DNA of 64,000 nt from Trichoplax sp. H2 (GCA_003344405.1 NOWV01000014.1:682001-746000), one strand, 5' to 3'. Shown: positions 6,881 through 60,683, counted from the stretch's first letter. The notes: generated by a model from the sequence alone, not told the origin. Translations and numbers: made by a program.

Positions 6881-6937
6881 CTTGGAGGATAACCTTTCTT
6901 CTCCAGTATAAAATCAATGCAATGGAACAAGATTGTC

Positions 6938-18796: not shown

Positions 18797-21700
18797 GTCC
18801 AGAAAGGAAAGGTTAACCTTGAGTTGATCAATAATAAACTGAAGGTTGAAAACAAAGTATAATACAGTCAATTGGCATGGATTAGTAGATTATTATAAGA
18901 TATTTTATTGATGATGTTATAGGCTAAGTAAGAGCTTACGTTGTTGGTTTTGATCAAAAGTGATTAATTATCGACAAGAATAATGAATGGACTTGGCAGT
19001 AAATATTCAACAACAGATAATTTTCACTACAATATATTGATATTCAACAATTTTAGTACGATTGTGATGGCCGCGATGATATAATAGAAATTCCAGAAGA
19101 GAAAAAGGTCTATACGACGTATTGGATGGATATAATTAATGCTGTTAAACTTGTCGATTTACCAGCACTACTTGTCACGGTTAGAATAGTTAGGTTGAAA
19201 AAGGTTGTTCGTAAGATGAGCGACTATCAAGCTCTTATTAGTCGACCTTTCTGCTAAAGGATCCTTATTGATGATACAACATTGTAATAGTTGCAAAGGT
19301 GGACGAATGAGTTTAATATTATTCCTGATTTTATCTATTTGATCTAAGTCTTTAATAATTGAAAAGAAAGTTCTTTAGCAAGAATAAATCGGCCACGTAA
19401 GGTATAATGAACTTTTCGATTTGTTAGGATTACTTGTAATTTTGGTACAGGCATAAGTAACGATAAAATCTATCCAGGGGTTTCCAAAACTTGTCCTTTA
19501 TCTTTCGTCAATAAGTTCTTAAGTTGGTACGTTTTACTAATACTTTACTATAAACTTTGTAACATAAAATTGTCTTTAAAATTGATTGTTGATCCCAAAG
19601 ATGAAACATTGATTAGAGATTACAATTAATTTGGAGTAGCTAATATTGTAATTCCCAGCGTTGACAAGGAATGAATCGCCAACTAATTTTTCATCATGAC
19701 TATTTTCTTGGATTAAATTTAAAGTCGAGCTAAATTCAATAATGGCAATAATGACTATCCGATATTGAAAAGCAATAAAATAACTTTGTTAATGGACTTG
19801 CTAGGAGACTTGTTTAAAGTCAAATTAATATTGTACAGTAATTAATTCTCAATGTAGTCATGGATAATAGTATAGCTGATGATAAATAAAATATGCTTGT
19901 TGATGAAATATTAAATAGATAAGTAAGGATGATTAAATCGACACAAAAGAGACAATTAGTGCTTAGACTGCCAAGAGTATAATGATGGATTTTTTTTTGA
20001 CTTGTTGGTAGAAATTAATTGGGTGAAGAGATTGATGAATTACTTTTCTTGTCTATTTTAATTGATTATTAATATTGCCGTATTGAATGTTTAATCTAAA
20101 TCCAATGTTAATCAAATCAACTGTGTGATGATTGCTTTCTTGACTACCAACACCAATAGGATAAAATATACATAGAAATCATTATAAAAATTAAAAAAAA
20201 ACAACAGTAAAGACGAACTGAATTTGGCTCTTGCCGTTTGTTTCCTTTTCGCTTTTTCTGTCAGTGATCTATATGAGGCTTGGTATTGATGTTATTTTCG
20301 TCAAAGAGATATTTACTAAAAGTAGTGAGATAGCTTCAATTCTTTTACTGTAAATCAATGCACAACTTTGTACTAAAATGCAACCGGTAATGGCTCTAGT
20401 AACTGAGCAATAAATTTCTATTATGTTGAAAATAGATCACCGTTCTCAATGAGTTGATAATTAAAATTTTGATTTTCAACAAGACTAGTATCCAAATAAT
20501 ATCTAAAACAATCCAATTCCAGTTGAGAATAACTTACATGATATTTTGGACTACTAATTAAGATTTAAAGTTGACTTGTCGATAAAATTAACGTCCAAAA
20601 ATAACTTTCTCAGGCCGTATTAATAATTCGGCCGCGAAATACAGAGATTAACCCAAATAAGATACCGGCTCTAGATCCTAATAGAAGCAATCTATCGCGT
20701 AATTGCTTCTTTCGGAGTGAAAGTATCTTTACCTAAACTAGAATAATCGTCTGCAATCGGCATTTTACTTGGATTAGTGTATGAAGATATCTATACTAAC
20801 TCTGGTATTACTTGAAAGTCAAAATGAAATGAAATCCTTTCAAGTAGAGAAGAGTAAATTCAAACTAGCTTAATATAATTGACTTCCTTCTATATGTTAC
20901 TAATCTACTCATATTATTATAGAGGACTTCGTTTGCTTTATAATTGAGTAGATATCAATTCCTGATCCGAAACCTACCGATTGGGTTTCAACCAATTTTC
21001 AACACCAAAGCTGTCCGACAATGAAGAATTGACCGGAAGTTAAAATTATCTATTCTAGTACATCAGTAAGGCAGAATTGTAGATGGTACCTAGATAAATT
21101 GTTATATCTACACACTACTGCAATTATTATCGTGATATTATATCATAAATTTCAAGTAATTAAAATGAAAAGAAAAAATATAAACATACGAGTAAGCGTA
21201 CAAATGAATTAAAACGCCTAACAGGGAGGGGGAGAAATAAGCTAACATCTACACCTTTCCATTCAATTACTGATATGAAGGGTTTAGTATCAGTTGATCG
21301 TCAAATTTGAATATTATGCTTTTCTTTTTTTATCTTTTATTGTATGATACCTATCTACACTGTATAGCATGATCGCAATGGAAACTTTTTAGACCCGGAT
21401 TTCACCTTTGATCATTGTCATTTATTCATTCTGCTCAATGTCAATAATAGACCCTGCATAGCCCATATCCTGGTTTGATTGATTCAAAATACTCCATAGC
21501 TAGACCCGATTATTTTTTCTTTCAATAATAATTACGACAATCCATAAATCAACAATTTTTGTCTGAAAGGCAGAATTGAAATGCTTTTATATCCGAGTTG
21601 GATGCTATTGGATTTAAAATTAAATAAAAGTCGGTCTGATGTTATGTCCGCTTATTGTTATTGCTGATTTTCTATGTTTAATTCCAGTTGCTAATATCAA

Positions 21701-25694: not shown

Positions 25695-26260
25695 GGCTAC
25701 AGTACTGTACCAGGATAGTTTTCATCCGGGCCGAATACTGTAAGGCAAGCGGGCTGGCCTTCCCCGTGATGACGGATCGGGCCAGACTGTCCATGATCGA
25801 CACACGTGATCGAATGAATGTGATTTGAGATCAGGTCAGCACACATTAGCCAATCAAAGTGCAGTATTGACAGTTGGAACGTAATTGATTGTGCTATACT
25901 GTTACTGTCTAGGGGACACAGAGAATCTTGCGATAGTAGGGTATGCTATCAACGGTGAGTTTGAGTACGTGACGTAGTGTACACATACAGTACTGTACGT
26001 GACCGAGCCAAGGCAGCGTGAACTTGTCATACTGACGCAGACTCATACTGTACTGCAGCAGTGTCGCCTGAACTAGACCTGAGTATACTCAGTGAGTCAG
26101 TGTACAGTCGAAGTCGCCGCAGGTCGAATCAAAGGTCACGTCATACCGGCGTACAGTGATTGAGTACAATCCATTGTCGTTGTACTGTACACTGTACACT
26201 GTACAGGACAGGGTGACACTATGATGACAGTCTACGGTCTGGACCGGTACCGTCCCAACT
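25695..26260 (+). promoter_or_regulatory. MSMO1 promoter region with E-box/SRE-like sites, a CCAAT box and TA-CNG pentamer clusters
   Basis: ccccgtgat at 25762, cacacgtgatc at 25801, agccaatc at 25848, gtacgtgac at 25965 and 25995, gtcacgtcat at 26135. GC-richer than the flanks and directly upstream of the ATG at 26355. Confidence 0.55.
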
Positions 26261-26354: not shown

Positions 26355-28901
26355 ATGAATTTTTATTCTGCTAATGAATCCTTCCCGCTAACGGATTACT
26401 TGCCGCAAAATCCCGTCGAACCCTATTTTCGGGATTATTGGATGGCTATGACCGATCGTTATACTAAATTTCAAATTGCAACTTGGGGATCGTTGATCGT
26501 TCATGAGGTATCAGCATGATATTGGATAAGTCTCATCCATTCAGGTGTACAACACCAAGTCGGTCGGTCGGTCGGCAATGGCAGTTGTCATTTGGATAGC
26601 AAATAATCTAGCTGTTTATGCCTACATTTTCAACTGTATTACCAAGTCGAAATTGTACATTCATCAACAATCATGGCAAAGGATAACTTGTGTCATTTCA
26701 ATGTATTTTTTTAGCTGGTTTATTTTGGCGCATGTGCGCCTGGATTTATGGCTCAATTTATCCCGTTCATGCATTACTTCAAGATTCAAAAGGTAATATA
26801 AAGGATATCCGCTATATATTCAATACAGCGAGTGAATAACATTTGAAATGGTATCTTGCTACTTTCAATCAACCTACTTTTCTTCTTTGTACTGCTGTAG
26901 ACTACGGTAATGTCATCATGCTTTATAACAAATATTTCCCTCACCCACCTCATGAATGAATATCAGACAGTGTCATAAATAAGTTGACTATTGCTATACT
27001 ACAGTACACCGAACCCCAACACAGGCACACAACGGAATCCAATCCAGGAGAACCAATGGATTATGATCAACCTCTTAACGTTCTAGGTGTCCCTTTATAT
27101 ATATTAAATCATTAAGAATGGAACTACTGTATTCCTCTACCAGTTATTGCTTCACAATCATCACGTCTGCCGTTACTGTATTACGCACTCATATAACGAT
27201 TGCTTTTGAAGCCATGAAATCAGATATGCGAGTGTATCAAATCGTTGTTGAGGTGAAAACTGTGACATAAGTGAAGAATAAAATAAACAACGATACGTAG
27301 TCACAGAGTAATGGACATTTTTAGTAACAGTCATCCAAAACACGAGCTCCTAAGCATTACTTCTGGTGCTGTAGAATGTACGTATGGCATTATTGATACT
27401 GTACTGTTCATATATTTTTTGTATCATTGACGAGTATTCGTTGTTAATGTAAGAACGGTACTGTGATCACGTTTCGACGCCAGATAAAGCAAGTTGTAAA
27501 GGAATGATCTAAAATAGATCAAACTTCCTATCATAGTGAATGCTTCATCTAACTTTGACTTTATCGGATGATAAACCCGACATCCATTCATATGTGCGTA
27601 CGCTTATTACTGTACAAACGTCCCGTTCTACTTAATATAAAGGCGTATAGCATTACTCTTCCGAAATATTCGCCTAACAAACGCCATCTCTTGGATGAAT
27701 AGCTTGCAAATAGCTTGCAAATAGCTTGCTATTCTCATCTTACCATTTTGCTTTTATATTGTGCATTACCAATTTGAAAGAAATGAATAGTAAACAAGAT
27801 GTAGTATCTTCTTAAGCTAGCAGTTAATTCTATGTGTATCTGTTTAACATGAAACGAATACTTCGTTGATAGGATAAGCCTGAAACTTTCGACAAGCAAT
27901 GGAAGTGTTTCAAGCTGCTCATGTTTAATCACTTCCTTATTCAGGTAAGAAAGTTCTTTTGATGCGTCAATTTATTCGAAATTCAAGTGCACGGTTAAGT
28001 TCATACAGTGCATACTGTGCATACAAGCTAGTACGGGTTCAACCGGTTACTCTGTTGCCAGTTGCTTATAAAATGAGTAATTATTTACGTATCAATTTAG
28101 CTGCCTCTGATTTGTGGTACATATGCGTTTACTCAAATGTTTGGAATCCCATATGACTACGCATCGATGCCTGCTTGGTTAGTAATACGGAATACTAGAA
28201 GATGAGAAATATTGAAAATAAGTTTTACTACAAGCGAAAAGTATCATGAAATATGAAAATAATTGACATTGTTGTCATGGTCATTCTTACTTCAGGTACA
28301 TCATCGCGATGCAAGTACTTGGATGTGCTGTAATAGAAGATACCTGGCATTACTTTTTACATCGAATCATGCACGATAAGCGATTTTATAAGTATGTTCA
28401 TAAAGTACACCACAATTTTCAGGCACCCTTTGGTATGACAGCGGAATATGCCCACCCGGTGGAAACTGTTGTTCTTGGTATGGGTTTCTTTATTGGAATT
28501 CTTACCTTCTGTACTCATGTTGTCCTTCTCTGGGCTTGGGTTACAGTAAGGCTATTGGAGACGATCGATGTTCATAGTGGCTATAACCTACCTTACTTAA
28601 ACCCATTTCATTTGATTCCGTTTTACGCTGGTAAGCGATTGCAATATTATTTTTCGCCTATATGTGTACAACTATACTATCTTTGTCTAAGTTGATTTGT
28701 GTACGAGTATATATTTTTTAAATGTTCCAAACTTTGATTTGCAATGGTTTAGGTGCGAAATTTCATGATTTTCATCATATGAATTTCACTGGCAATTATT
28801 CATCTACCTTTTCATACTGGGATCGAATATTTGGAACAGATCAACAATATCATAAGTATGTAGGGGAAAAGCAAAAAGCAGCACTGAAAAAATCTGAATA
28901 A
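26355..28901 (+). CDS. MSMO1: Methylsterol monooxygenase 1 (sterol-C4-methyl oxidase, ERG25/SC4MOL)
   Basis: Exons 26355-26507, 26715-26792, 27873-27944, 28101-28177, 28296-28630, 28753-28901. Motifs [30 protein letters not shown], His boxes [14 protein letters not shown] and [21 protein letters not shown], and a C-terminal KKSE ER-retrieval signal. Confidence 0.96.
27699..27729. repeat. Triple 11-bp tandem repeat (ATAGCTTGCAA) in MSMO1 intron 2
   Basis: atagcttgcaa atagcttgcaa atagcttgc. Confidence 0.85.
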
Positions 28902-29785: not shown

Positions 29786-31277
29786 TTAACGGAAATCTTC
29801 AGCGCTGAACATGCCCTGTAAGATAGCAGAAAAAAAGCAGTGATTAAAACTTTACAGCTTCTATGTAATTGCAATGACTATCGACAATGTACTTTCAGAA
29901 AATACCTAATCAGTTAGTAATTGAACTATGATGTACAGTAAGTACTGTGTTGATTGGGCACAGGTAAGTGCTGTACGTACTGTAAATATTCATTGAAATT
30001 GTAATGTACACTACTTGGGATATCTTTATTTAAAATTGAAGATAACTGGCGTATAGAAGTAATGGCCAGTGTAACATTGGTCATGATAAATCATTTATAA
30101 TTAGAATTACTGCGTCTTGGATAAATGATTTAAATTACCTTGGCCCTTTTCAAGATAGAGTCTTTCGAAGGATCGTACGGCTGATTTTTAGACGGGATCT
30201 CTAAAACAGCAGGTATCGATTCTCGGTGTTTATCTATTAGGTGACGAATCTCGTCGGCAATCTAAGAAAATGGATAGATATCATCAAACATCGACTCTTA
30301 TTCGACAACATAATTTTCTTGCAGAGTAAAGCGAGAGTAGCAATACCATATTTAGCGATAGAATACGTTTGATGATAACGGTAATAGCATAGACAAAATT
30401 ATTATGCCACCATATGTCAAGTCATGGTATAAGGACATTAAGGGAATAGTTGAATTTAGGACAGGTTGCGCACTTAACAGAGTAGTCATACGATTACAGG
30501 TAGTACGATAACTTTGTAACTATCCAGATAGGTAAATTAATCAAAGTATTTTAGCCATACTGAATAGGAATATATCACCAATTGAAGACACCGAAGCCAA
30601 TGTCATACCAATTTACCGGTACCATATGTAGGAATAAAATTATCAAATTATCTGCTATTACAAGTGAGCGCCTATCGTACTGTATGATATGACGATGCGG
30701 CTACTCTTAGCGCCATTCATGCATGATAACATGAATATAAAGAAATGCTAGCCTTCTTTAGACTACATAGACATCATCCGGTAAAATAATACGGAATGAG
30801 CCATCTTAGGCTCGAGTACTTTCGCCATGTTGAACTAGTTCCATGTCATCAATACTGTGATGATACGAATCATTGTAGCGAGACAGTACTTACATGTTGG
30901 TTGATCATAATGATGGCAATATCATTTCTCCCCAAGAAATGCTTGAAAGCTTCTTCTATTTCACCCAGTGTACTATCTGAAAATGGTAAAGAATAATAAC
31001 ATCCATTCAACTCCCCCCATTCCATCTATATTCGTATCATTTGATCAACTACCTTTTCGAACAACAAAGAAGTTCTTCTGACGTTTGGCATTTACTTCGC
31101 CAACACCGCCCAGTAAAAATCCTGTACATGTGTCCTAAAAGGGTCAAAATAAAGAGTGATCAGATTGCCATGATGCATTCTTCTGCCTTAAACCGTTTTA
31201 ATCCCTACCTCATCACCAACAACTGCTAAAAGTCTTCCTGGTTTTACTGCACGACCGTGAGGAATAGGAGCAGCCAT
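29786..31277 (-). CDS. ATP6V1F: V-type proton ATPase subunit F
   Basis: Exons 31277-31209, 31134-31053, 30976-30894, 30261-30139, 29815-29786 give ..[107 protein letters not shown]. This gene is absent from the ORF track because the exons are short. Confidence 0.97.
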
Positions 31278-31413: not shown

Positions 31414-31425
31414 CATCACGTGATG
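31414..31425. promoter_or_regulatory. Palindromic E-box CATCACGTGATG (CLEAR/MiT-TFE-like)
   Basis: Perfect 12-bp palindrome with a TCACGTGA core, about 140 bp upstream of the ATP6V1F ATG. Confidence 0.55.
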
Positions 31426-31433: not shown

Positions 31434-31630
31434 ATCCGGTCCAGTCCGGTCCGGTACAGTACGTTTACAGTATTGCCATCTCTTTTTTTGGTAGACGCCG
31501 ATTGTACACGGTACAGTACTGTACCGTACTATACCGTACCGTACTATACCGTACCGTACCATTCCGTACCGTACCGTACTAGAAGTCGCTGAATTCAAGG
31601 GCCTGGGAGAACATACGGTACTACGGTCGC
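31434..31630. repeat. Pentamer array (TA-CNG)n, mainly (CCGTA)n, upstream of ATP6V1F
   Basis: 31509-31578 parses as cgg ta cag ta ctg ta ccg ta cta ta ccg ta ccg ta cta ta ccg ta ccg ta cca tt ccg ta ccg ta ccg ta. Confidence 0.9.
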
Positions 31631-31787
31631 AAAGAGCTTGCAAACCAACCTTCTATTGCAAGTCCAAGACTTCAATACCGTGAATACTCTATAGTTTTGC
31701 AATAAACTCAAGGTATTGTATGCGTAGTCTACTGACACTGTAACCTCAAGGTATCAGTCCTATTACTTACAGTACTACTGTCGTCAT

Positions 31788-32376
31788 GGACTCATGGACC
31801 ACCAGAAGAAGGCCAAGGATGGACTTCTTGTAGTTGGACTTCTTGTAGTCCATCCTTACTCTACTGTCGATGTAGTATAAATAATTATAAATAAATTAAT
31901 TAATCAATCGTTGGAAAGGTTTCAAACCTAACCCCCAAACCCTAGTTGCAATTTCTTTTCACAGCTGAAAATATGGCAAGCCGATAATACACACGGACTG
32001 TTGGATCACAAGAAGAAGCCCGAGGCTGGACTTCTTCTTGTAGTCCATCCTTACTCTACTGTCGATGTAGTATAAATAATTGTAAATTAATGAATCAATC
32101 GTTAGAAAGGTCTCAAACCTAATCCCCAAACCCTAGTTGCAATTTCTTTTCACAGCTGAAAATATGGCAAGCCAATAATACACACGGACTCATGGATCAC
32201 AAGAAGAAGCCCGAGGCTGGACTTCTTCTTGCAGTCCATCCTTACTCTACTGTCGATGTAGTATAAATAATTGTAAATTAATGAATCAATCGTTAGAAAG
32301 GTCTCAAACCTAACTCCCAAACCCTAGTTGCAATTTCTTTTCACAGCTGAAAATATGGTAAGCCAATAATACACAC
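31788..32376. repeat. Tandem minisatellite, 3 copies of a 191-207 bp unit
   Basis: Units start at 31788, 31995 and 32186 (ggact..gga..cac.agaagaag...gtccatccttactctactgtcgatgtag...cacagctgaaaatatgg...aatacacac). Confidence 0.95.
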
Positions 32377-33057: not shown

Positions 33058-33881
33058 GGATACGGACAAATGGCAAGGTCGACCAATGTGAATTACTTAT
33101 AAACTAGGCAGTGCTGTGAATATATCAGTTATATGAATAGATAGGCTGTCTTCAAATACCGCAATAAGAAAGATTATATCCTACGTACCTTACCTTATAT
33201 TAAATACCGTATACAGTATATTACAGTATTTAAAATGAATATGGCTAATTATTCTGAACTATTCGATTACAAAGTAATTATTATTGGTAAAAGGTTGGTT
33301 TGGTAGCGCTTTGTTGATTGAATTGTAATAATAGTATTGACCATAAGGCAACAACTGGACTACTTTTTAACATCAGTTCCCTACCATGACTAAAATAACT
33401 AAGTAAATACGCTTCTCTCTATTGAAAAGTACAGTATGACATCATTTACAAGGACATTGACCCACCATGAACTTAATGGATGGTTTAGTATACAAGCATG
33501 ACATAGTTGTAATAATTCAGTTGACGACATATGGATCTTCAGTTTAAATTAAACCTATATTTCGCCTGATATTAATCGTGCTATAACAGTAGATATACAT
33601 TATAGCAATCGGGTAGTAAAGGCAGACTTTAATCATTACTTCATCGCTAAGATTTATCTAATCAGATTCTAACTGTACTTAATAGTTAGCAATTTATTGG
33701 CATGATTTACATGATTACTGCAAATCGTTATTCTCCTTCTATTTAATTGATCGGTGAATTAGAAAAATCGTGTATTGAAAGCAAGCGCTCTACGGCAAGT
33801 TGTATATCTGGCATTCAATCTTGCGAATATAGCAGTTCAACGTTTTATCAATTTCATATATCTTCGGCCAACTGATAAGCC

Positions 33882-36800
33882 ATGCTACGATATCAAACTT
33901 TCACTACTCTCATTTTACTATCATACCTGATTTGGGCACAACTATTTTTGGTAGCTGTATGTCAAAGTCCATGCCAAGGTATTACTCGTCTAGAACTTGA
34001 TGATGATAATCCTGCTATCTCTATCAATTCACCAAGTTATCCAGTCAACTACAAGCATCTTGTAAACTGTCAGTGGATAATTCATCAGTCTAATCGTACC
34101 AATCGAATTAAACTAGAATTTGATATGATTCACATTGCTCATAGCAATATATCCTCCAAGAATCATTCCATCGGCTTTATGAACAACAGATGCAAAAGAC
34201 AGTATATACAGGTTGTGGATATTTTTGCTGTACCTCATTTAATAGGTAAATTTTGCGGCAATCAAGTTCCATCACCAATCATTTCGGCAGGCAGTGTATT
34301 ACGAGTTCAGTTTGTGAGCAGAAATAGTCAATCTAAGTTTAAAGCCACTGCGTCAAGCACGGAGTAAGTTTATCTCTTGTTATGCTTCATTTAAATTAAA
34401 CTAGATTGTTTATTGATTATGAGGGTTTCATATATTGTTATACTAAAAGCAGGTGAGAGAGTTGTGATCATTACGATTAAGTTCTGTAGTTTATCTATCA
34501 ACATAGGCTATTAAACAACCAAGGATGTTAATTGTTCCAAATGCTGAAGCAAAGCGTCGGCGATAGAGTAAATCTCACAATAAGAAGCGTAGTCTTCATT
34601 TAACTCTTGTATCAAAAGATACTCAGACTTCCACTGCTTTCGCTATAATACATGTTTTTCACTTAGCAGAAGAATATATATATATTAGATTAGTTATTTT
34701 AATACTAATACTCTGTTATTAGCATATCAAGAATATTACATCTAATATAGAATGTAATAGTGTATTAGTGACGCATCTAATTCCGTAACTTCTATCAGTC
34801 AAGCTATAGACGTTAAAATACTGTATACATTGTACGCTAAAATCTCATTCTATTTTATAGTTTGTGGTAACTTGTGCTCTAGTTGCTATATTGCTATCAT
34901 CACCCTTTGATGTCATTTTATGATTAGCCAGATTTTCGTTTGCTACTTAGAGATATAGCTTAAATAAAATCTTACAAAGTTATTGACACAATTCTGAAAA
35001 TTGACAGGTATTACTAGAATAATTACGATATTAAAATTTTTGCGATTGATATCATCACCAGCATGATGTCACGCATATACAGTATACAATCAGTATAATA
35101 TAACTCAAATTATATCCAGACTCTGATATATTGTAACAGTAATATTAATCTGAATTGCAGCTAAGGGTCAAAGTTAGTCTACATACGCTTATAAAACGGT
35201 CATCTATAGATGTGATTTACCGATACTTTCGTTATACTATTTGTTCGTCAGATAGAAGTGCAACGATTTCAATGGGGCTGTTAGTTTACGTATAAAGTAC
35301 CTGGTAGTTCCTCAATCATATTCGCAAATAGAAAAATGGAACTAAAAATTGTTTTACTTTGCACTGGAATTTAGGGAATACTGTGGAACACATAAAAAAA
35401 TGGCTACAACTTCTGTCGAATTATTGTCCTCCCCTAAATATTCCAATCCTTATCCCTCTAATGCGAGATGTTATTGGAAACTGCAGGTAACGAGCACTTT
35501 ACATCATGTAGGATTACAATTCGCATAGGCATTGTCAACTGAGTGCACTACTGAAGTTAATCTATTAGATATTGTATAAGTAATTACTGCTTACAGTCGG
35601 AACTAATGATTACCTAGTACGTTTCATGAATTTTAGATTTTTCATAAAGTCGAAATTATGGGTGAATATTGATAAAGCTAATCCAATGTTTTTACTAATA
35701 TTACTGCACTAGGCTGCGCCAAATCATGTTATTCTCTTGGATTTCATGGATATTCATTTGCAAGACAGTACTAATTGTGAGAAAGATGGCATAACAATCT
35801 ATAATGGAGGAGGATTGTCTGCACCACTACTAGGCGTAATTTGTGGTGTTAATACCGATAATGTTAAACCATCCATGGTTTCTACATCTAATCAAATGTT
35901 TATTGCCTTTAAGTCAGGTAAGGCGATTAGATAAAGTATGCCACTAAAATTATAAATCAAAGTAGAGTTATAGCAATACCATAGCATCTATAGCTATTGA
36001 TCTCTTTGAATAGGTATCAAGTCATTGAAATGATAACATCATAATCGGATTAAAATTTTATAAAATAATTTTATTTTTGAAAAGTACGTTCAATAGTTAT
36101 CGGCTAGTTTAATGATATTAATTATAATTAGCGATCATCAAAGGAATCATATATTATTATGGCCCAGTATTAAAGTTATGCTATTACTTTCAGTTTAGTC
36201 GTCTCAGTAGAGCTTTAAATCAATAAACTACTTGGATATCAAGTTATAAACAAAGATAACATTTCATACTAAATCAGAGTTTGCACGAGTTAAAGCTTTA
36301 ATTGCTAATAAAACTTGTTGTAGTGGCTAAATTTATAAATAGTCTTTTACTAACAGCCATAGTCTAAGCAGATTTTATGATATATTGTATCAACATAAAT
36401 TTCTTAATTGTCATATAGTTTTTATGATGAGTACAATGTATATACGATAATCCTCGCCATAATAAAATTAAAATAATATTCATTCAATTGAAACAAAGAT
36501 CATCAACTTACGCAACATTTAAGCTTAATAAAATTAAATTATTAAAAGTAATACCACTATAAAGAATTACTATACGTGAACTTTGTCAAATTATTAATTT
36601 AAGAATCGTACCAGTGCTAGCGAGCTACAGTTTTGAGATTATAGCATTTAAAGGGCAATGTTTGATGAAAATTAAAGGCTAATCTTTACATTATCTTAAT
36701 ACTAGACTTGAAGTATTAAATATGATTTAATGATGTTTTAATGCTAAATTATTTAAATTATTTTTTAAGTTTACAATCAATATTCGCCTAATCCGAATTT

Positions 36801-37632
36801 AAAACTTAACTTTTAGATGATACTGAGCCAACTTATAACGGGTTTAGTGCTTACTATGTTGCAAGAAAAGTTGAATATTGTGATAACGTTACCACAATTA
36901 TTAGCGAAGATACGGTACTATCTACGCCAGGATATCCAGATGGCTATTCTGGTAAAAGCAATTGTTATAATCAATGGCTAGTTCAGGTTTGCTCTACAAG
37001 TACAGCAATATATGACGCCTAGAAATGTCATAGGATTACAATTACCTGCTGTTATTACTTAGGCTCCAAAAATAGACGATACTATCAAGATTTCTATGGC
37101 TGACATTGTATTGCCACCTAACATTCCATGTGTAAATTGTTATATGAGAATTTTTGATGGTCCAGACAGTAATTCCAAAATCTTAGCAACAATTTGCTCT
37201 GCAACTTTAGCAGACGAATATACTTCTTCAACCAATGAATTGTATATTGAATTTTACACAGGTTTTCTATAATTTTTATTTAATAAAAGTATGATTGCTA
37301 TGATCTTTATTGCACTACGCGAATTGAAGCTTATTTTGCCATTATTTTTAGCTTTTCCTTGGACAGGCAATAGTGGAATTGCTGCTAATATTTCTATTAT
37401 CGAAATCCCCGAAGTTCAGCATCCTAATGGTAATCATAGCAATCATCATCCAGACGATCATATTCCAAATGGATCTGGCTATAATCCAGCTGGAGCAATT
37501 GCAGTTTTCGTTAGTATCGTTTTAATGACAGTCATCGTATACGTAACAAATAAATATAAAATAAGATGCTCTAGAAATAGGAGACGAAGAGGATCTGATC
37601 ATTTTGCATTAGTGAACGAAATGGATACATAA
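33882..37632 (+). CDS. Type-I membrane protein with a signal peptide, three CUB domains, one TM helix and a short basic tail
   Basis: Exons 33882-34363, 35375-35486, 35713-35917, 36817-36986, 37063-37261, 37352-37632 splice in frame. CUB motifs INSPSYPVNY..NCQWII..GKFCG, LSSPKYSNPYPSNARCYW..GVICG, LSTPGYPDGY..IFDGPD..ATICS. TM AGAIAVFVSIVLMTVIVYV followed by RRRR. Confidence 0.88.
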
Positions 37633-50500: not shown

Positions 50501-52163
50501 GTCAAATAGATCAAATCGAATTCTAATTTAAAAGACTGTTAATCCTTCCAGTGAATAGACTGGCATATGTGATCGGTGTCGATTTTGGTTCTTTATTATG
50601 ATACACAATCACTAGCTTGCTGATTTCTAAACTGAGAGCATTTTATAAGAGGTAAAAAAAGGAAAGCGTTGATTGCATCTCGTGGACGCGTACTCAAATC
50701 ATTTTCTTCTAACAAGCACATTGTAGCTTGGCTTACTTTCTATCTGTGGGAAAGTTGAAAGAAGCATTAAGATTGAATCATTACCGGTAACAAGGGGGCT
50801 GTAACTATTTTGTTACAATGTAGAACTTCATTGTCGAAGACTGGTATATAATTCATGATAGCTATTTGCATTTTGCACCATCGTATGACAATGTCTATTG
50901 AGCCATTCAGCGAACTTGCGATAACTGCAATGCCATCTGAGCCTCAATTGCCTGCTCTGCATTCTACAATATAAATATGGACTCTTGCAAATGGTATCCA
51001 TTCGTATTTGTTGTATTTATACAGTATACAGTAAGTTAAACGTGTACCAATCTCGATGTCCTGTCGATTGTACTGCAGAGGTAGGCGAATTCTTTTACTG
51101 TAGGTTAAAGTCCCTGTCCTTATTTCAGGACTTTACCATAAATAAGAGGACACACCTCAATTGGATGTCTATAGTCCAAGAAAGACATGAGATGTTAATT
51201 GTATGCCCGTATGCGGTTAAGAAAGGTCTAAATTGACCAAGTTAATCTTCAATCGTGATGTAATTAAGAAACTACGGGTAAAATGAATCATTCTTAGTCT
51301 ATATGATAGCCATATCCAAATTAGTCATTTAATTTTTCCTTGCATAAGGTAAATGCCAATTTTGGTTGATATTCATTATTATTGATTTATTTGATTTGTT
51401 TATTTATTTTCATTTATGGACCGACTTTAAATATGACACTTTCCGTAGCGGGGTAAATTACTACCTAAATAATTGTGATTTATTAGGCCAGTGCCTTTCA
51501 CCGTTGAATCGGCGATTGAGGTTGACCGGGACAGTACGGGCGTGCAAAAGTGTTCTCAGTATCAAGGTTGACATGAATGTTGACATTGCTATGCTAATGT
51601 ATGAATGGCATGCCATCAGTCAGTCGAATCATTGTTTCTTTTTGAATTTAGTTCATTTTCTGACATTGAAATATATTGGTAAGTAAACTGTTGGCCGTTT
51701 GGGGCTTGATAGGAGGTATGATTTAGACAGATGGCCTAACCTTATGGACAGTTTCAGTACTACTCTATCCAGTCGGCGTCCAAAATGCAAATCAATCCAT
51801 CAACAATCTATTACGCCGCCATCCTGTACTGTACTTTACACTCTATAGTACTGTATAGCAGAGTACAGGATGTTGACTAATGCTGCTGGTATTTTGGATC
51901 GATTGCATTGCCTATTTGCACTAGGGGAGCTGGGTTGTTCAACTTGTGCTTTGACGGATAGAAAGGTTAGACACTTGCTTGCAATGTCTTTCCAGAGGAT
52001 AGCACTCGTAGGATTGTGTTTTGATCGAGTACTGGGCCGGTCCATTGTAGAGTAAAGTCAAACTTGCACCTTTTCTTGCCCCAAAAAAAGATCGACAACT
52101 GTGCCCCCCTCCCCCATAAACCGGATTGGGGACTTGTCAGGTTCACTTCCCACTGGAGTTAAG

Positions 52164-52334
52164 GGTACAGTACGTACTGTACCGTACAGTACAGTGTATT
52201 CTGTGCAATTTCCACGGGTTTGGCTAGTGAACAGTACAGTACAGTACTGTACCATGTACAGTACAGTACTGTACCATGTACAGTACATTGTGCACGGTAC
52301 TGTAGATCCTGTACCGTACCGTGCCGTACCGTGC
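52164..52334. repeat. TA-CNG pentamer island upstream of the SLC34 gene, with a 22-bp direct repeat
   Basis: tacagtacgtactgta palindrome; (acagtacagtactgtaccatgt)x2; gtaccgtaccgtgccgtaccgtg. Confidence 0.85.
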
Positions 52335-52745: not shown

Positions 52746-55706
52746 ATGTTGCTAGAAGGCGCGGAAGTCGATGGTAAGAAGGCAAAAAATGGAACTGAAG
52801 TCAAATTAGACGTAGCCGAGACGGATATCGTCCTCAAAGTAAGTTTTCTAACAATCAATCAATCAATCTGTGTTGAATCCGACGAGCACAAGGTCGACTT
52901 GTACCGACCCATTGATGCCTCGACCAATGACGATACAAACGTCTCCAATCAATCATCTGTACTGTAGTTTAGTACTGTACACTGTACAGTATGGACTGTT
53001 GAGGTCAAGCGTACAGTAGTTTCCAACGTTTACACAGTGCCGCTACTGAACAAGACGCATGTTCTCCATGGAAACTTGTCTTGTACAAGGCATTTGCAAT
53101 GGAAGTAGCAAACTCTCACTCTCTCTCTCTCTTTAGGGACCATGTCGTGATGATAGATAGATAGATTGACCATCGCAGCGTGCAATATTATTTTTACACT
53201 ATCTAGTCTATTTTGTAGTGTGCTACCATTGGTTTGTCAGTTGGCAAGTGTGCTCTACTCAATCAATAAATAATTCATGATTGACAGTAATTCATGAATA
53301 TGGAAGACTGGTATTTAGTACAGATGAAAGTGGATACTTTCTGAAATTATGAAACTACTGCTACTGCTGCTAGTTAGGAATGGCATGATTTAAATATCCA
53401 ATAGCATTGCTTGACCTTGTTGATCTGGATGTGTGTTAAATAACCTCCCTGTATGCACGTTACCATCAACCCTAATATAGTTGGATCATGGGGAGGTGAA
53501 ACGCTATTCATGCTTGTAGAGTGGCGTTTCGTTGGCCATCAAGGAGCATAAGACTATGCCACCATGATGACACCGCGTCTTTCAGTAGTGTTTGAATTTG
53601 AAAATGATACATATGATATGGCCAGAACATGACCTGGCTTCGATTTTCTGACCTATATAAATTGTTTGTATTCTGAATAGACCAATGATAACAATAGAAA
53701 CTTGATCAAAAATGACGAAAAGGAAGAAAAAGAATACGATCCATGGCAAGCACCTGAATTAGTTGACAACTCTCCAGCATGGGCAGGTATGCTAACGTTA
53801 GCAATCGACAGTATTGTAAAGTATTACTGAAATATTTTCAATTGAAAAATTGTTTTTGACAACCGTACGCCTATTAATGAATTATTGATTGGCGGCACAT
53901 AAAGTAAGACGCTTGCTCAAAACCCTTGCTAACCAGTCAATACTGATATCGGTGCATGTTTTTAATCCTTTTAAATAGAACTCAACGGCAAGGAGAAACT
54001 GCAAAGAGTTGGATACCTCTTGTTACGATTTGTTGTGATCCTTGGCAGTCTCTACCTGTTCATTTGCTCGCTTAGCTTGTTGTCTGATGCTTTCAGACTG
54101 CTAGGTGGTAAAGCAGCTGGGGAAGCGTTAGATGAAGAAGGAATTGTTGCCAATCCCATTGCTGGTCTCATGCTTGGTGTACTCGTAACCGTCTTGGTGC
54201 AAAGTTCTTCAACATCTACCTCTATTATTGTTACCATGGTCGGCGCTGACAGTAAGTTTTGATAGTTTATATTTTTACCAAATATTATTAGTGATGAAGA
54301 TGATAGGCGATGTCGCAATAGCAATAGTAATCTAATAATGTGTATCTTCACAATTAGTTTTGACTGTGCAACATGCTGTCCCTATTATCATGGGTGCCAA
54401 CATCGGTACATCTGTTACCAATACAATAGTATCGTTTGCTCAATCACCAAACCGTGATGAATTTCGCCGTGCTTTTGGCGGTGCCACCGTCCATGACATG
54501 TTTAATTGGTTAAGTGTCATTGTGCTATTGCCTATTGAAATAATTACCCATTACCTATATTGGTTATCACATGCTTTGACAGGAAATATTAAAGGAGACA
54601 GTTCCGCTAACCAGGACTTACTAAAAGCTCTTACTAGCCCCTTTACTAATCTCATCATTCAACTCGATAAAAAAGTAATTACAAACATTGCACTAGGAAA
54701 GGAAGAATATCTTAATAAAAGCTTAATAAAGGCGAGCTGTGGTTCTACTATAAACATTGTTCCAACAAATATGTCTGTGATACAAAACGTAACCGACCCT
54801 AGTACCGGAGCAATCACCTTGGATACGACTTATGAAATAGTCAATATTAGCAACATTGACAAAAAACCATGTCATTTTCTTTTTGCCAATACTGGAATGA
54901 GTGATCCTGTTGTTGGAATTATTTTGTTGTTTATGTCGATTGTTGTATTATGTGGTTGCCTCATTATGCTTGTAAAATGTTTACAAGCCTTATTGAAAGG
55001 ACATGTAGCCAAAATTATCAAGAGGACCATTAATTCTGATTTCCCCGGTAGATGGAGTGTTTTGACTGGCTATGTGTTCATGTTAGTAGGTGCAGGTGTC
55101 ACTATCATTGTTCAATCGTCGTCAGTATTCACGTCGACGTTAACTCCTCTGGTAGGTATTGGAGTTATAGAATTGGAAAGAATGTATCCATTGACATTGG
55201 GATCAAATATCGGTACAACGACAACTGGTATCCTTGCAGCTTTGGCTAGTAAAGTCGGCCTTCATAATGCCATGCAAATTGCTATTTGCCATCTCTTTTT
55301 TAACATCTCTGGAATTCTGGTATGGTATCCGATACCTTTCATGAGAAAGATTCCGGTAAAGATGGCAAGGTTTATGGGCAATACTACCGCCAAATATCGT
55401 TGGTTTGCCGTAGCTTACCTAATTTTCGCCTTCTTTATCATCCCTGGTACTATTCTTGGATTATCTTTAGCTGGCTGGTATGTGCTGTTGGCTGTCGGTG
55501 GCCCAGTGGTGCTCCTATTAATAGCAATATTAATCATAAATGTTCTACAACAGCGAAGGCCAAAAGTCCTTCCAAAAAAACTACGCACATGGGAATGGGC
55601 ACCGATTTGGCTAAAATCGCTGGAGCCTTACGATAAATTGCTTGGTCGTCTTTGCTTCTGCTGTAAATATCGATCTGGCAAGCCTGAGCCTGAAACAAAC
55701 TGTTAA
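52746..55706 (+). CDS. SLC34A: Sodium-dependent phosphate cotransporter, SLC34/NaPi-II family (IIb-like)
   Basis: Exons 52746-52838, 53681-53786, 53979-54251, 54358-55706. Motifs DPW..W, LYLFICSLSLLSDAF, two QSSS motifs (LVQSSSTSTSIIV, IVQSSSVFTS), IIMGANIGTS, LGSNIGTT, and a C-terminal Cys cluster LCFCC. Confidence 0.96.
53113..53167. repeat. Short (CT)n and (GATA)n microsatellites in SLC34 intron 1
   Basis: ctctcactctctctctct and gatagatagatagat. Confidence 0.7.
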
Positions 55707-57672: not shown

Positions 57673-57754
57673 ACAGTGTACAGTACAGTACACCCAGCGC
57701 CCATACTGTACACTGTACCGTACAGTACTGTACACTGTACCGTACAGTACCGTG
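57673..57754. repeat. TA-CNG pentamer island upstream of PPCS with inverted and direct repeats
   Basis: acagtgtacagta (57673) pairs with tactgtacactgt (57704); (tactgtacactgtaccgtacag)x2. Confidence 0.85.
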
Positions 57755-58016: not shown

Positions 58017-60683
58017 ATGAATAGCTATCAAGAGCAAATTGAATTTATGGCAGCAAATCCTCCACCGGATAATATCCATGAAATCCAACTGACCGTTCAT
58101 CAATTCCTGTCTCAACATATCGATCATCGTGATCATCGCATTGCTTTTATAACGGTAAGTCTAGAACAATGATAATAGAATGCTTGTAATGCAAAAGAAA
58201 AAAAATGAATTGGAGGCAGCACAGCTGATGAACCAAGTGGCTGCTTCATTTGAAATGCCTCCACAAATCAATGAATGACTAATACAGTACATGTCCTAGA
58301 GCATTTCGTGATCAAGTTAGAAAAATTGTAATAATAACAATCATCGCTAGGTATAAAAACCGAGATTCCGTTTTACCGTATAGAATGAACGATGACAATA
58401 CTTTAGCCTTGAAGTAGACTGCAATAAAGTCTAAATGAAATTTTGATAATTTACGTATGGCAACATCAGTGATGAATGATATTGAGATGATACGCATAAT
58501 TTAGTGTATGCCGATATAGCATCTTCGAGATCTAATATGTCTATATGCGTGAGTTACACTTAAACGTACAAAATCAGTAGATTAAATAATACGGTCTTAA
58601 CACATCAAGATGCACTATATTAACATATAGCATAATATTGATCAAATATCAGCGTACAAACACTCCTGCTGCTGCTAGAGTTATCTTTTGGTACGCAAAC
58701 GTCATGACATTAGCAATATAACGTTCAATAAATTTAGATTAACTCGATGCAAATGCAAAATATATATTTTGATCGAGTAGCTTTACATGATTATTATGCA
58801 TAGATTATCCTGTATGGTAGTTTAGCCATCTCTTACATCGTGTCAAGAAGTATAAATTCAAAGCTTTATCAAAGAAAAAACTCTGTCACTATAGATTGTA
58901 ACGAGAGTTTGACAAATAAATTACTAAAAAAGTCAAATTCGAGCGTGCTTATTTTTTTCTGCAATAGTCTGGTGGCACTTCTGTTCCATTGGAAAGAAAC
59001 ACTGTACGATTTATTGAAAATTTCAGTTCCGGAAAGCGAGGTTCGGCATCAGCAGAGTATCCTAATCCAAAGAAATAGCGTCGACTATCTTATTTGCAGT
59101 ATTACTGTTAGTACTAACTTACATAAACAGTATGACAACCATTTATACAATAGATGTAGCTGTTTGTGCCTTAACGAAATATATGCACTTGCCAATGTAG
59201 GTATTTTATACGTTGTGGATATATAGTCATATTCTTGTATCGCAAGAGTTCTTTGCAGCCATTTCAACGACACTGGAGGTCTTTAAATTTTCTAGACTCT
59301 TTGGAATGCCACTGTAATAGCGATAACGAAGCTGTAATTACTGGTATGTTGTTACTTAAAAGTTTAGCTTGGACATTGATTCGATAAAGTTATTTAGCCA
59401 TACTAGCTTCCTGATGTCTGAAAAATGTCGATATATTTTGATACAGTAAATAACCCTAAGCTCTTGACAAGTCTGCAATGCTATCAACAGGTAAGATACG
59501 AGTACATCCGTTTGCTATGATATCATCGTCATTGGCAATAACTATTTGAATGAAAATTGAATGGATTTCACTGAGTATTAGTCATTTCGTCTTAAAAACC
59601 TGATATTAGAACGATATGGTAAGATGATTTAATAATGCGCATTCTTAAATTATAGGCTCGAAGTCAAGGAAAACTCTTAGTGATCGATTACACTACTCTA
59701 TTCGATTATTTGCATCTGTTACATGCTATTACCAAAGAATTGAAGGTTTTCCATTCCAGAGCCTTGGTATACCTAGCAGCGGCTGTTTCCGATTTCTATC
59801 TTCCATTGGAGCGAATGGTACAGAAAATTAAAAATCATTTATCTATTCTTTAGCATATCTATATTATCAACTTTTTGCACTTGTCTAAATGACCATGTCC
59901 ATCACTTTTATATGATCTGTTAAATGTTTATTGAAATTTTGCGTCAGAACAGATGAACAATATTTTCGTTCTCTATCGTTGCAAATTGTCATTATTTTTA
60001 CAAATTTCTTAGACTGAGCACAAGATTCAATCTGCTAATGAAAAGCTAACGATACAGCTAGAAGCTGTGCCTAAAATGCTAAAAGTCTTGATTGACGAAT
60101 GGATTTCAAATGCCTATATTGTATCATTTAAGGTATTACTTCTACAATTGCTTTTAGCTTCAGATTAATATAAAACTACAATTGAGATCGTCACAAAGAT
60201 ACACTGACGAAATCTTTATGACTAAATTCCATAATTATTTATTGTAGCTAGAAACAGATCAAAAGATACTTATTGAGAAAGCGCAGCGATCATTACAAAA
60301 GTATTCTCACCAAGTAAGTCCGTGCTTGAGGGTGATCTTAATCCTGAATATTTATTCTGTGCGTATAGACCCACTATAAAATTTTGTGTTTGATACTCGT
60401 GAATGTAATGGAATTCTAATGTTTGTGCTCGCATTCAGCATAGAAATTTTATGTGTGCTTACTTATACATTTATCTTATCCATCCTTAACATATAGTCAA
60501 TTTTTCTATTAGCTAGTCATAGCCAATTTGTTGCAAAGTCGCGAAACTCGAGTAGTGATGGTAACTCTTGCCGGACAAGAAGTTATTGAAATGTCGAATG
60601 ATGAGATTGAATCTGATAAAGAAATTGAAGAAAAAATTATATCCTATATAGTAATGAAACATCAGCATTACGTTAGTTTATAG
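58017..60683 (+). CDS. PPCS: Phosphopantothenate--cysteine ligase
   Basis: Exons 58017-58154, 58968-59056, 59201-59343, 59447-59490, 59656-59817, 60013-60132, 60248-60313, 60513-60683. Motifs [76 protein letters not shown]. Absent from the ORF track. Confidence 0.95.

What the first reader, a model, noticed from the sequence alone, without database searches (positions are those of the whole stretch)
31434..31630. Promoter islands built from TA-CNG pentamers: possible stacked Tc1/mariner excision footprints
Seen: here, and at 25695-26260, 51825-52334, 52958-52992 and 57673-57754, the DNA parses into 5-bp units TA+CAG/CTG/CCG/CGG. The dense arrays sit near gene starts (ATP6V1F, MSMO1, SLC34, PPCS); elsewhere only isolated units were seen. 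Established: Tc1/mariner-type elements insert at TA, and Sleeping Beauty-type excision leaves TA-CAG-TA or TA-CTG-TA (+5 bp). Elements ending in CCG would analogously leave TA-CCG-TA or TA-CGG-TA. Inference: repeated insertion and excision at TA sites in open promoter chromatin, perhaps extended by slippage, built these islands. They may now act as a lineage-specific promoter signature. The mixed orientation of units (CAG with CTG, CCG with CGG) fits footprints better than simple slippage.
Basis: partly seen in the sequence, partly recalled or inferred. Interest (0 to 1): 0.78.

Follow-up and report, generated by a model that had tools for sequence, protein, structure and literature searches.

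The report
Placozoan promoter GTAC pentamer arrays
Four gene promoters in this Trichoplax window carry dense arrays of a 5-base repeat (TAC-N-G, core GTAC) that match a recently published placozoan promoter and chromatin-contact motif, and the window gives no good evidence that stacked transposon excision scars built them.

Summary
The window is Trichoplax (placozoan) DNA. GTACNGTAC occurs 32 times against 0.43 expected. All 9 clusters of three or more GTAC lie in four regions, 150-920 bp upstream of the ATGs of ATP6V1F, MSMO1, SLC34 and PPCS, plus one cluster in SLC34 intron 1.

The feature is already in print. Kim et al. 2025 describe a motif at housekeeping promoters and loop anchors in four placozoans. 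A 2026 paper names "repeating motifs ACGG and ACAGT" for T. adhaerens.

The footprint origin is not supported here:
- Arrays grew by duplication of 15-bp and 22-bp blocks that carry mutated units.
- Unit order and orientation are not random.
- I found no transposase, no TA-flanked CAG-ended element and no 5-bp indel.

One result keeps the idea alive. Outside the arrays, TACAGTA/TACTGTA is the most over-represented heptamer (62 against 12.5 expected).

Cross-species and genome-wide tests could not be run.

The parts
31504..31579 (.). Main array of the finding. It holds 12 GTAC cores. From 31512 to 31577 there are 14 phase-locked pentamers, 9 canonical TACNG and 5 one-mismatch variants (TACTA x3, TACCA, TTCCG). 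A 15-bp superunit TACCG-TACCG-TACTA is repeated 3.9 times. The array lies 227-302 bp upstream of the ATP6V1F ATG.
31435..31464 (.). Left arm of the ATP6V1F island. It has period 5 but reads TCCGG/TCCAG/TCCGG/TCCGG/TACAG/TACG, so most units lack the TA. It is 77% complementary to 31516-31541 across a 53-nt spacer.
31613..31626 (.). These are the only CGG-type units, in inverted orientation to the CCG run.
31209..31277 (-). ATP6V1F exon 1 ([23 protein letters not shown], then a GT donor). Later exons at 30873-31025 and 30133-30261 match Pfam ATP-synt_F.
25698..25710 (.). MSMO1 upstream region: the palindromic core TACAGTACTGTAC, 645-657 bp upstream of the ATG.
25979..25998 (.). MSMO1 upstream region: a 3-GTAC cluster with the same core TACAGTACTGTAC.
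26182..26204 (.). MSMO1 upstream region: a period-7 array (GTACACT x2, TRF ACTGTAC x3.1), 151-173 bp upstream of the ATG.
26355..26510 (+). MSMO1 exon 1. It is 98% identical to 'Methylsterol monooxygenase 1 [Trichoplax sp. H2]'. Further exons lie at 26715-26792, about 27873-28187, 28297-28641 and 28734-28898.
51824..51855 (.). Distal SLC34 upstream arm (GTACTGTAC... TAGTACTGTA). It is 83% complementary to 52240-52269 across 384 nt.
52165..52334 (.). SLC34 upstream arrays, 412-581 bp upstream of the ATG. There are 6 GTAC at 52165-52192, 10 GTAC at 52234-52286 (a 22-bp superunit repeated 2.5 times at 100% identity) and GTACC/GTGCC units at 52311-52334.
52972..52987 (.). Small cluster GTACTGTACACTGTAC in SLC34 intron 1, 226-241 bp after the ATG.
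52746..52838 (+). SLC34 exon 1 (MLLEGAEVDGKK...). The following exons at 53681-53785, 53978-54250 and 54357-55703 are 99.8-100% identical to the Trichoplax sp. H2 protein.
57673..57750 (.). PPCS upstream arrays, 267-344 bp upstream of the putative ATG. There are 3 GTAC at 57678-57691 and 8 GTAC at 57708-57750 (a 22-bp superunit repeated 2.1 times at 100% identity).
58017..58154 (+). Putative PPCS exon 1. This is my reading: ATG, 46 codons, a GTAAGT donor, in phase with exon 2 at 58968. Exon 2 gives a weak Pfam DFP match (E 0.0046, below the cut-off). Exon 1 found no database protein.
31417..31422 (.). CACGTG E-box 12 bp from the island. The other two CACGTG in the window are at 25803-25808 and 52505-52510, also in array-bearing promoter regions.

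Best explanation
These are promoter-proximal arrays of overlapping TAC-N-GTA sites (core GTAC, 5-bp offset). They match the placozoan-specific motif reported at housekeeping-gene promoters, chromatin-loop anchors and insulation points.

Proposed mechanism: a sequence-specific architectural or promoter factor, not yet identified, binds the palindromic 7-bp sites. A 5-bp offset puts neighbouring sites on opposite faces of the helix, so an array can load many copies. That would mark an open promoter and allow promoter-promoter contacts.

The arrays change length by replication slippage or unequal exchange of 5-, 15- and 22-bp blocks, and they decay by point substitution. Where the first units came from is unresolved.

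Shown here: the sequence anatomy, the position 5' of four genes, the block duplications and the shared longer words.
Taken from papers, for T. adhaerens genome-wide and not for these loci: the link to loops, insulation and housekeeping promoters.
Inferred: the factor, its way of binding, and function at these four promoters.
For: Organism: the SLC34 ORF is 100% identical to a Trichoplax sp. H2 protein.

Non-random arrays: 32 against 0.43 expected, and all 9 clusters of three or more GTAC lie at four 5' regions.

Distance to the ATGs: 227-302 bp for ATP6V1F, 151-657 bp for MSMO1, 412-922 bp for SLC34 and 267-344 bp for PPCS. The four other Pfam-recognised genes (ArfGAP, MFS transporter, GPCR, CUB protein) have no cluster.

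Published motif:
- Kim et al. 2025 (PMC12221973, passages read) report an enriched motif at loop anchors and GP1 housekeeping promoters. It is present in orthologous promoters of Trichoplax sp. H2 and two other placozoan genera.
[quoted passage not shown] (ACAGT)n equals (GTACA)n, and an ACGG(T) repeat is the reverse complement of (GTACC)n.

Defined words shared between promoters: TACAGTACTGTA occurs 6 times in all four regions and belongs to the commonest 10-mer of the window. ACTGTACACT occurs 7 times in three regions. 17-43-nt matches link the SLC34 arrays to the PPCS, MSMO1 and ATP6V1F arrays.

Block growth: a 15-bp unit x3.9 at 93% identity, a 22-bp unit x2.5 at 100% and a 22-bp unit x2.1 at 100%.

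Ordinary promoter content nearby: all 3 CACGTG boxes of the window lie in three of the four regions.
Against: I never saw the letters of the Kim et al. motif. They appear only in figures, and supplement files 2 and 6 are pictures. The identification therefore rests on one sentence of another paper.

No chromatin, TSS or contact data could be consulted for these loci. No other placozoan genome could be fetched, so conservation of these four arrays is untested.

SLC34 is not an obvious housekeeping gene.

No binding protein is known.

The excess of isolated TACWGTA across non-coding DNA (62 against 12.5 expected) is not explained by a promoter role.
Confidence: 0.7

Rival explanations
1. Repeated insertion of TA-targeting Tc1/mariner-type elements and their excision in open promoter chromatin left canonical TA-CWG-TA footprints, and TA-CSG-TA from elements with CCG ends. 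These stacked into arrays, possibly extended by slippage.
For: TACAGTA and TACTGTA are the canonical 7-bp Sleeping Beauty footprints (10.1101/659086, passages read).

Outside the arrays TACAGTA/TACTGTA is rank 1 of 7,395 heptamers (62 against 12.5 by a first-order model, 28.5 by a third-order model).

Among the 64 TA-NNN-TA words the four footprint-type words rank 1-4: CWG x4.95 and CSG x2.66.

The 62 isolated units have no conserved flanks. Only 1 lies in about 7 kb of confident coding sequence (positions, exons; my count).

TACGTA (x1.71, rank 1 of 16) and TACTA/TAGTA (x1.26) are also top of their classes. One TACGTA joint sits inside an array at 52170.
Against: Array length is due to duplicated 15-bp and 22-bp blocks that carry non-canonical units such as TACTA and the CAT and ACT spacers.

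Units are ordered, not randomly mixed. CAG-then-CTG junctions number 6 and CTG-then-CAG 0. The middle base is C 9 times and G 0 times.

The left arm 31435-31454 has period 5 without TA.

No transposase domain was found in 355 distinct ORF translations.

3 of 5,647 TA|CWG...CWG|TA pairs reach 15/20 terminal-repeat matches, against 1 of 2,115, 0 of 2,373 and 0 of 1,940 in controls. 0 of 650 pairs do so for CSG ends.

The window has no dispersed repeat at all.

0 of 6 indels between tandem-repeat copies is a 5-bp CNGTA. At 41975 TACAGTA differs from sister copies (TATAGTA, TATAATA, TATACTA) by substitution.

TACATA/TATGTA, common Sleeping Beauty by-products, are the most depleted of 16 words (x0.60).
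Confidence: 0.06
2. The option raised by Kim et al. The arrays are terminal inverted repeats of a Mutator-type DNA transposon family. Either the family inserted preferentially into active promoters, or its ends were later domesticated as binding sites.
For: Kim et al. report that GP1 promoters often contain Mutator insertions whose terminal repeat contains the motif. They also report a Mutator family shared by four placozoans (passages read).

In the window the arrays do come as inverted pairs around spacers of 28, 53, 384 and 476 nt.

Mu-type elements are known to prefer gene 5' ends (abstracts in the listing).
Against: The four 'elements' share nothing but the GTAC words. There is no homology in spacers or flanks.

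No convincing target-site duplication was found. The best candidates are 6-9 nt with a mismatch and lie inside the arrays, and 44 of 300 random control pairs reach 8 nt or more.

No MULE or any other transposase domain was found in the window.

The published annotation was made with EDTA 2.1.0. As far as I recall, EDTA classes such elements by structure. Any two self-complementary (GTACW)n arrays would then look like terminal repeats, so the label may describe the arrays themselves.
Confidence: 0.12
3. Neutral pentanucleotide microsatellites. These would be slippage-prone, self-complementary repeats that simply persist in nucleosome-free promoter DNA without any sequence-specific function.
For: The repeats are head-to-tail with recent block duplications. 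Unit variants arise by point change within a fixed phase. Some arrays fold as hairpins better than shuffles (z = -3.46, -2.76, -2.15).
Against: All four array regions lie 5' of genes, and none lies in the other roughly 60 kb of mostly non-coding DNA.

The same repeat family and the same longer words recur at unlinked promoters.

Two of the five folds are no better than shuffles (z = -0.31, -1.10).

Published work ties the motif to loop anchors and to orthologous promoters in four species.
Confidence: 0.07

Closest known systems
Placozoan GP1-promoter / loop-anchor motif (Kim et al. 2025, Nature, PMC12221973), and the 'repeating motifs ACGG and ACAGT' found for T. adhaerens by Chimaera (NAR 2026, PMC12817080)
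   Same: The organism group is the same. Both sit at promoters of mostly housekeeping genes. The repeated pentamers are the same when written out: (ACAGT)n equals (GTACA)n, and ACGG(T) repeats are the complement of (GTACC)n. Both are linked to inverted-repeat structures.
   Different: I could not see the published logo. Chromatin state and contacts of these four loci are unknown. In this window I find no target duplications, shared element bodies or transposase to back the 'Mutator' label.
Canonical Sleeping Beauty / Tc1-mariner excision footprints (TACAGTA, TACTGTA)
   Different: Footprints are single scars at former insertion sites. I know of no report of stacked arrays (recalled; not searched specifically). 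Here the units are ordered, duplicated in blocks, and include C-type and TA-less units. No source element is present in the window.
Heat-shock elements: contiguous inverted nGAAn pentamers bound by HSF trimers (recalled, no call)
   Same: The architecture is alike. Contiguous 5-bp units, in arrays of variable length, would be read by a multimeric factor on alternating helix faces.
   Different: The sequence is different, and HSEs have 3-8 units and an inducible role. This is an analogy of design only.
BEAF-32 / DREF CGATA-TATCGATA clusters and M1BP Motif 1 at Drosophila housekeeping promoters and domain boundaries (recalled; M1BP is mentioned for T. adhaerens)
   Same: Clusters of a short palindromic word at housekeeping promoters double as architectural or insulator sites. 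A link to transposon-derived sequence or protein has been proposed in both cases.
   Different: The motif, the lineage and (for placozoans) the unknown protein all differ.
SBP-box (SPL/CRR1) GTAC-core sites of plants and green algae
   Same: The core is GTAC, with a CCGTAC / GTACGG preference (abstract of PMC13458263 in the listing).
   Different: The family is described as plant-specific (abstracts in the listing). No placozoan SBP protein is known to me, and none could be searched for here.

Membership tests
Tc1/mariner canonical excision footprint | The sequence is TA-C(A/T)G-TA, that is TA plus 3 nt of the element end plus TA. | tested here: met
   TACAGTA and TACTGTA units are abundant, 95 of the 120 TACNGTA in the window. 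The word equals the published footprint.
Tc1/mariner canonical excision footprint | A source exists: TA-duplicating elements with CAG (or, for the C/G units, CCG) termini, or their transposase. | tested here: not met
   This was tested in the window only. No transposase domain was found in 355 distinct ORF translations. 3 of 5,647 candidate end pairs reach 15/20, which is like the controls, and 0 of 650 do so for CSG ends. There are no dispersed repeats. The rest of the genome could not be searched.
Tc1/mariner canonical excision footprint | The site is a +5-bp insertion relative to an empty TA site in a related copy. | tested here: inconclusive
   Only three tandem-repeat families could serve as related copies. 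Their 6 indels are 8, 1, 9, 4, 9 and 8 bp, and none is CNGTA. One TACAGTA arose by substitution. Power is very low, and no orthologous genome was available.
Tc1/mariner canonical excision footprint | The middle base is resolved at random, so CAG/CTG (and CCG/CGG) units should be mixed without order. | tested here: not met
   CAG-then-CTG junctions number 6 and CTG-then-CAG 0. For GTACNGTAC the middle base is C 9 times and G 0 times. Tandem duplicates make these counts partly dependent.
Placozoan GP1-promoter / loop-anchor motif (Kim et al. 2025) | The sequence is the published motif, described in words elsewhere as repeating ACGG and ACAGT. | tested here: met
   The arrays are (GTACA/T/C)n. 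The logo itself was not seen.
Placozoan GP1-promoter / loop-anchor motif (Kim et al. 2025) | The motif lies in promoters of broadly expressed, housekeeping-type genes. | tested here: met
   The arrays are upstream of ATP6V1F, MSMO1 and PPCS, and also SLC34. They are absent from the GPCR, CUB, MFS and ArfGAP genes. Expression breadth is inferred from gene identity, not measured.
Placozoan GP1-promoter / loop-anchor motif (Kim et al. 2025) | The site carries ATAC and H3K4me3 peaks and is a Micro-C loop anchor. | not testable with these tools
Placozoan GP1-promoter / loop-anchor motif (Kim et al. 2025) | The motif is present at orthologous promoters in other placozoan species. | not testable with these tools
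Mutator-like element (terminal inverted repeats) | Long terminal inverted repeats flanked by a 9-11-bp target-site duplication, with copies sharing internal sequence, and a MULE transposase somewhere. | tested here: not met
   Inverted array pairs exist. There is no credible duplication, no shared spacer or flank and no transposase domain in the window.
Pentanucleotide microsatellite | Head-to-tail repeats of one unit that grow by slippage, with locations not tied to function. | tested here: inconclusive
   Tandem structure and block duplication are met. Random location is not met, since all 9 dense clusters lie at four gene 5' regions.

The most novel reading that the evidence does not exclude
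The heptamer TA-CWG-TA is scattered at about one per kb through non-coding placozoan DNA because it is a real excision scar of long-lived, low-copy cut-and-paste elements. At active promoters such scars were captured by a DNA-binding protein and amplified by slippage into the arrays that now anchor promoter hubs. Transposon footprints, rather than transposon bodies or terminal repeats, would then have seeded a lineage-specific regulatory and 3D-genome code. On this reading the published 'Mutator TIR' label would be a by-product of structure-based annotation of self-complementary arrays.
Probability: 0.06. Interest if true: 0.75.

Novelty: already known. Interest (0 to 1): 0.35.

Why it matters
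Placozoans were recently shown to fold about a third of their genes into promoter hubs that depend on a sequence motif. The binding protein and the evolutionary origin of that motif are both open.

This window shows the motif's fine anatomy at four ordinary promoters:
- overlapping TAC-N-GTA sites at a 5-bp offset;
- a recurring 12-bp palindrome;
- recent 15-bp and 22-bp block duplications;
- inverted array pairs with no hallmark of a transposon.

That anatomy gives concrete probes for finding the protein. It also gives a reason to re-examine the 'Mutator' origin.

The footprint idea is a testable third origin. It gains only one piece of support here, the excess of isolated TACWGTA.

Tried and rejected
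Literature:
- I tried to read the published motif letters. The Kim et al. main text has none. Of its 6 supplement files, 4 were searchable with no hit and 2 are pictures.
- The Chimaera supplement is too large to read, and its preprint has the same sentence as the paper.
- Sebe-Pedros et al. 2018 is not held.
- Najle et al. 2023 (passages) gives no such motif.
- No listed paper combines Trichoplax or placozoa with GTAC[A/T/C/N]GTAC strings.
- Searches for Trichoplax with mariner and footprint, with SBP, for promoter hubs and for Mutator terminal repeats gave nothing beyond Kim et al.

RNA genes: there are no Rfam matches and no tRNAs in the window, so the arrays do not flank RNA genes.

Isolated TACWGTA as transposon termini: rejected, because the flanks are not conserved.

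Isolated TACWGTA as an RNA-level signal: unlikely. The two strand forms are equal (31 and 31). By my reading of the positions against the gene models, they show no bias to the sense strand in the mapped genes and are not near 3' splice sites.

Hairpin or cruciform potential as the whole explanation: mixed results, with z from -0.31 to -3.46.

Target-site duplications around inverted array pairs: none better than controls.

PPCS exon 1 found no protein in the collection, so that start codon stays my reading.

No cross-species or genome-wide test was possible.

Full report
ORGANISM AND SETTING

The window is AT-rich (about 33% G+C). It encodes animal genes. A 455-aa ORF at 54339-55706 is 100% identical to 'Sodium-dependent phosphate transport protein 2B [Trichoplax sp. 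H2]', so this is placozoan DNA.

Pfam on stop-to-stop ORFs recognises eight genes:
- ArfGAP (+, 1000-1346)
- an MFS transporter (-, 5744-6913)
- a rhodopsin-type GPCR (-, 17831-18889)
- MSMO1 / fatty-acid hydroxylase (+)
- V-ATPase subunit F (-)
- a multi-CUB protein (+, 33879-37269)
- SLC34 (+)
- PPCS (+; a weak DFP match)

CHECKING THE OBSERVATION

Successive GTACs are spaced by 5 nt 32 times and by 7 nt 8 times.

- GTACNGTAC occurs 32 times against 0.43 +/- 0.64 in 100 dinucleotide shuffles, and none of the shuffles reached 32.
- GTACNNNGTAC occurs 8 times against 0.44.
- TACNGTA occurs 120 times against 18.9 +/- 4.3 (maximum 28 in 100 shuffles). Of these, 45 fall in the five stated intervals, which make up 2.2% of the window.
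- Tandem Repeats Finder finds the period-5 arrays at the stated places.

All 9 clusters of three or more GTAC lie in four regions. Outside the intervals only two two-unit runs exist.

The intervals are generous. TACNGTA covers 38%, 8%, 18%, 60% and 59% of them. In the primary interval the true array is 31504-31579. From 31512 to 31577 it is 14 phase-locked pentamers, of which 9 are canonical and 5 differ by one base.

POSITION RELATIVE TO GENES

- ATP6V1F. Exon 1 reads [23 protein letters not shown] on the minus strand with its ATG at 31277. Later exons match ATP-synt_F. The array is 227-302 bp upstream.
- MSMO1. Exon 1 (ATG at 26355) is 98% identical to the Trichoplax sp. H2 protein of that name. 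Arrays lie 151-173, 357-376 and 645-657 bp upstream.
- SLC34. The ATG is at 52746 (tblastn of the H2 protein). Arrays lie 412-581 and about 890-920 bp upstream, and a small cluster sits in intron 1.
- PPCS. I read an exon 1 from ATG 58017 to a GTAAGT donor, in phase with the exon that carries the DFP-like stretch. The protein search did not find this exon, so the start is putative. Arrays lie 267-344 bp upstream.

The other four genes have no cluster nearby. I did not map their starts.

All three CACGTG boxes of the window lie in three of the four array regions. This fits ordinary promoter DNA.

ANATOMY

Four features go beyond 'a pile of pentamers'.

1. Higher-order blocks. A 15-bp unit TACCG-TACCG-TACTA is repeated 3.9 times at 93% identity. 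A 22-bp unit is repeated 2.5 times at 100% in the SLC34 array, and another 22-bp unit 2.1 times at 100% in the PPCS array. These blocks contain non-canonical pieces: a G-to-A unit, and the CAT and ACT three-base spacers. Present array length therefore comes from duplication of multi-unit blocks.

2. Order.
   - The palindrome TACAGTACTGTA occurs 6 times, in all four regions. It belongs to the commonest 10-mer of the whole window.
   - The opposite order, CTG then CAG, occurs 0 times.
   - The middle base of GTACNGTAC is A 13, T 10, C 9 and G 0 on the + strand.
   - The few CGG units sit apart, in inverted orientation (31613-31626).

3. Shared words. Different promoters share 15-43-nt strings such as ACTGTACCGTACAGTAC and GTACTGTACACTGTAC. 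They share no similarity in spacers or flanks.

4. Inverted pairs. Arrays come as inverted pairs around spacers of 28, 53, 384 and 476 nt. Some fold as DNA hairpins better than shuffles (z = -3.46, -2.76, -2.15) and others do not (z = -0.31, -1.10).

WHAT IS KNOWN

Kim et al. 2025 (passages read) report thousands of promoter-promoter loops in T. adhaerens and Cladtertia. They report:
- an enriched motif at loop anchors and at 'GP1' promoters (highly expressed, housekeeping functions);
- the same motif in orthologous promoters of Trichoplax sp. H2, Hoilungia and Cladtertia;
- overlap with terminal repeats of 'Mutator' elements, annotated with EDTA.

The logo is only in figures that I could not read.

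I therefore file the arrays as this published motif. The reservation is that the link rests on that one sentence. No other paper in the library adds to it.

TESTING THE FOOTPRINT ORIGIN

Against stacking:
- the block duplications, the ordered units, the TA-less left arm and the recurrent longer words described above;
- no transposase domain in 355 distinct ORF translations (364 scans; 13 of 111 and 11 of 161 ORFs were left out because they were already covered or overlapping);
- 3 of 5,647 TA|CWG...CWG|TA pairs reaching 15/20 terminal matches, against 1 of 2,115, 0 of 2,373 and 0 of 1,940 in controls, and 0 of 650 for CSG ends;
- no dispersed repeats in the window at all;
- among the copies of the three tandem-repeat families, six indels of 8, 1, 9, 4, 9 and 8 bp, none of which is a CNGTA insertion;
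- one TACAGTA (41975) that differs from its sister copies by base substitution.

These tests cover 64 kb only and have little power.

With the five intervals masked, TACAGTA/TACTGTA is the most over-represented of 7,395 heptamers. It occurs 62 times against 12.5 under a first-order model and 28.5 under a third-order model.

Among the 64 TA-NNN-TA words the four footprint-type words take ranks 1-4.

The 62 sites have no conserved flanks, so they are not transposon ends. They are spread over the whole window. By my count of the positions against the mapped exons, only one lies in about 7 kb of confident coding sequence.

Of the non-canonical Sleeping Beauty footprints, TACGTA and TACTA/TAGTA are the top words of their classes. 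TACATA/TATGTA are the most depleted (x0.60, ranks 15-16 of 16).

This pattern fits a general preference for TAC followed by GTA at spacing 0-1 at least as well as it fits a footprint spectrum. It is not explained by a promoter role, and I record it as unexplained.

THE 'MUTATOR' ALTERNATIVE

In this window the inverted array pairs lack credible target duplications. The best candidates are 6-9 nt with a mismatch and lie inside the arrays, and 44 of 300 random pairs do as well at 8 nt or more. The pairs share no internal sequence and have no transposase nearby.

(GTACW)n is self-complementary, so any two arrays look like terminal repeats to a structure-based finder. The label may therefore describe the arrays themselves. 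This rests on my recollection of how EDTA classifies elements and is an inference.

VERDICT

The most likely mechanism is an array of overlapping palindromic sites for an unidentified architectural or promoter factor. The arrays would be maintained at housekeeping promoters and remodelled by slippage.

The footprint origin is unsupported but not excluded. The transposon-end origin is also unproven at these loci.

Still unchecked: chromatin data at these loci, any other placozoan genome, genome-wide statistics, and the published logo.

Noticed in passing
whole window outside 25695-26260, 31434-31630, 51825-52334, 52958-52992 and 57673-57754: Isolated TACAGTA/TACTGTA is the most over-represented heptamer (62 against 12.5 expected, rank 1 of 7,395). 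It has no flank conservation, occurs at about 1 per kb, and is nearly absent from confident coding sequence. TACGTA is also top of its class, while TACATA/TATGTA are depleted. The cause is unexplained.
   Followed up: yes
25803-25808, 31417-31422, 52505-52510: The only three CACGTG E-boxes of the window all lie in array-bearing promoter regions (MSMO1, ATP6V1F, SLC34). The total count is not enriched (3 against 5.1 expected). The one beside the V-ATPase gene reads TCACGTGA, which I recall as the core of the MITF/TFE-type lysosomal-gene box.
   Followed up: partly
31785-32376: A 191-bp tandem repeat (about 2.8 copies, 91-95% identity) starts about 150 bp beyond the ATP6V1F island. Each unit begins with a 20-nt inverted repeat (31815-31834 / 31838-57). 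No Pfam match was found in its ORFs.
   Followed up: partly
6938-7851: A 223-bp tandem repeat (4 copies, about 91% identity) lies directly beyond the upstream end of the MFS transporter ORF (5744-6913, minus strand). The copies differ by 8-, 1- and 9-bp indels.
   Followed up: partly
41843-42384: A repeat of about 104-112 bp (4-5 copies, about 85% identity) has an AT-rich ATTAAT-type half. One position reads TATAGTA, TACAGTA, TATAATA or TATACTA in different copies.
   Followed up: partly
10233-10241, 31013-31018, 52104-52109, 57524-57532: Runs of six or more C (or G) occur at four loci, giving 10 overlapping matches against 1.8 expected. Two of them lie 55-150 bp upstream of the SLC34 and PPCS arrays.
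   Followed up: no
26355-28898 compared with 52746-55703: The MSMO1 exons are 92.7-100% identical to the Trichoplax sp. H2 protein, except one segment whose boundaries I did not resolve (48.6%). The three SLC34 exons after exon 1 are 99.8-100% identical. The lower values may reflect exon-boundary differences in the annotation, or a slightly different strain.
   Followed up: no
58017-58154: The PPCS first exon as I read it (46 codons, in phase with exon 2) found no protein in the collection. The deposited gene model may start elsewhere or be missing.
   Followed up: partly
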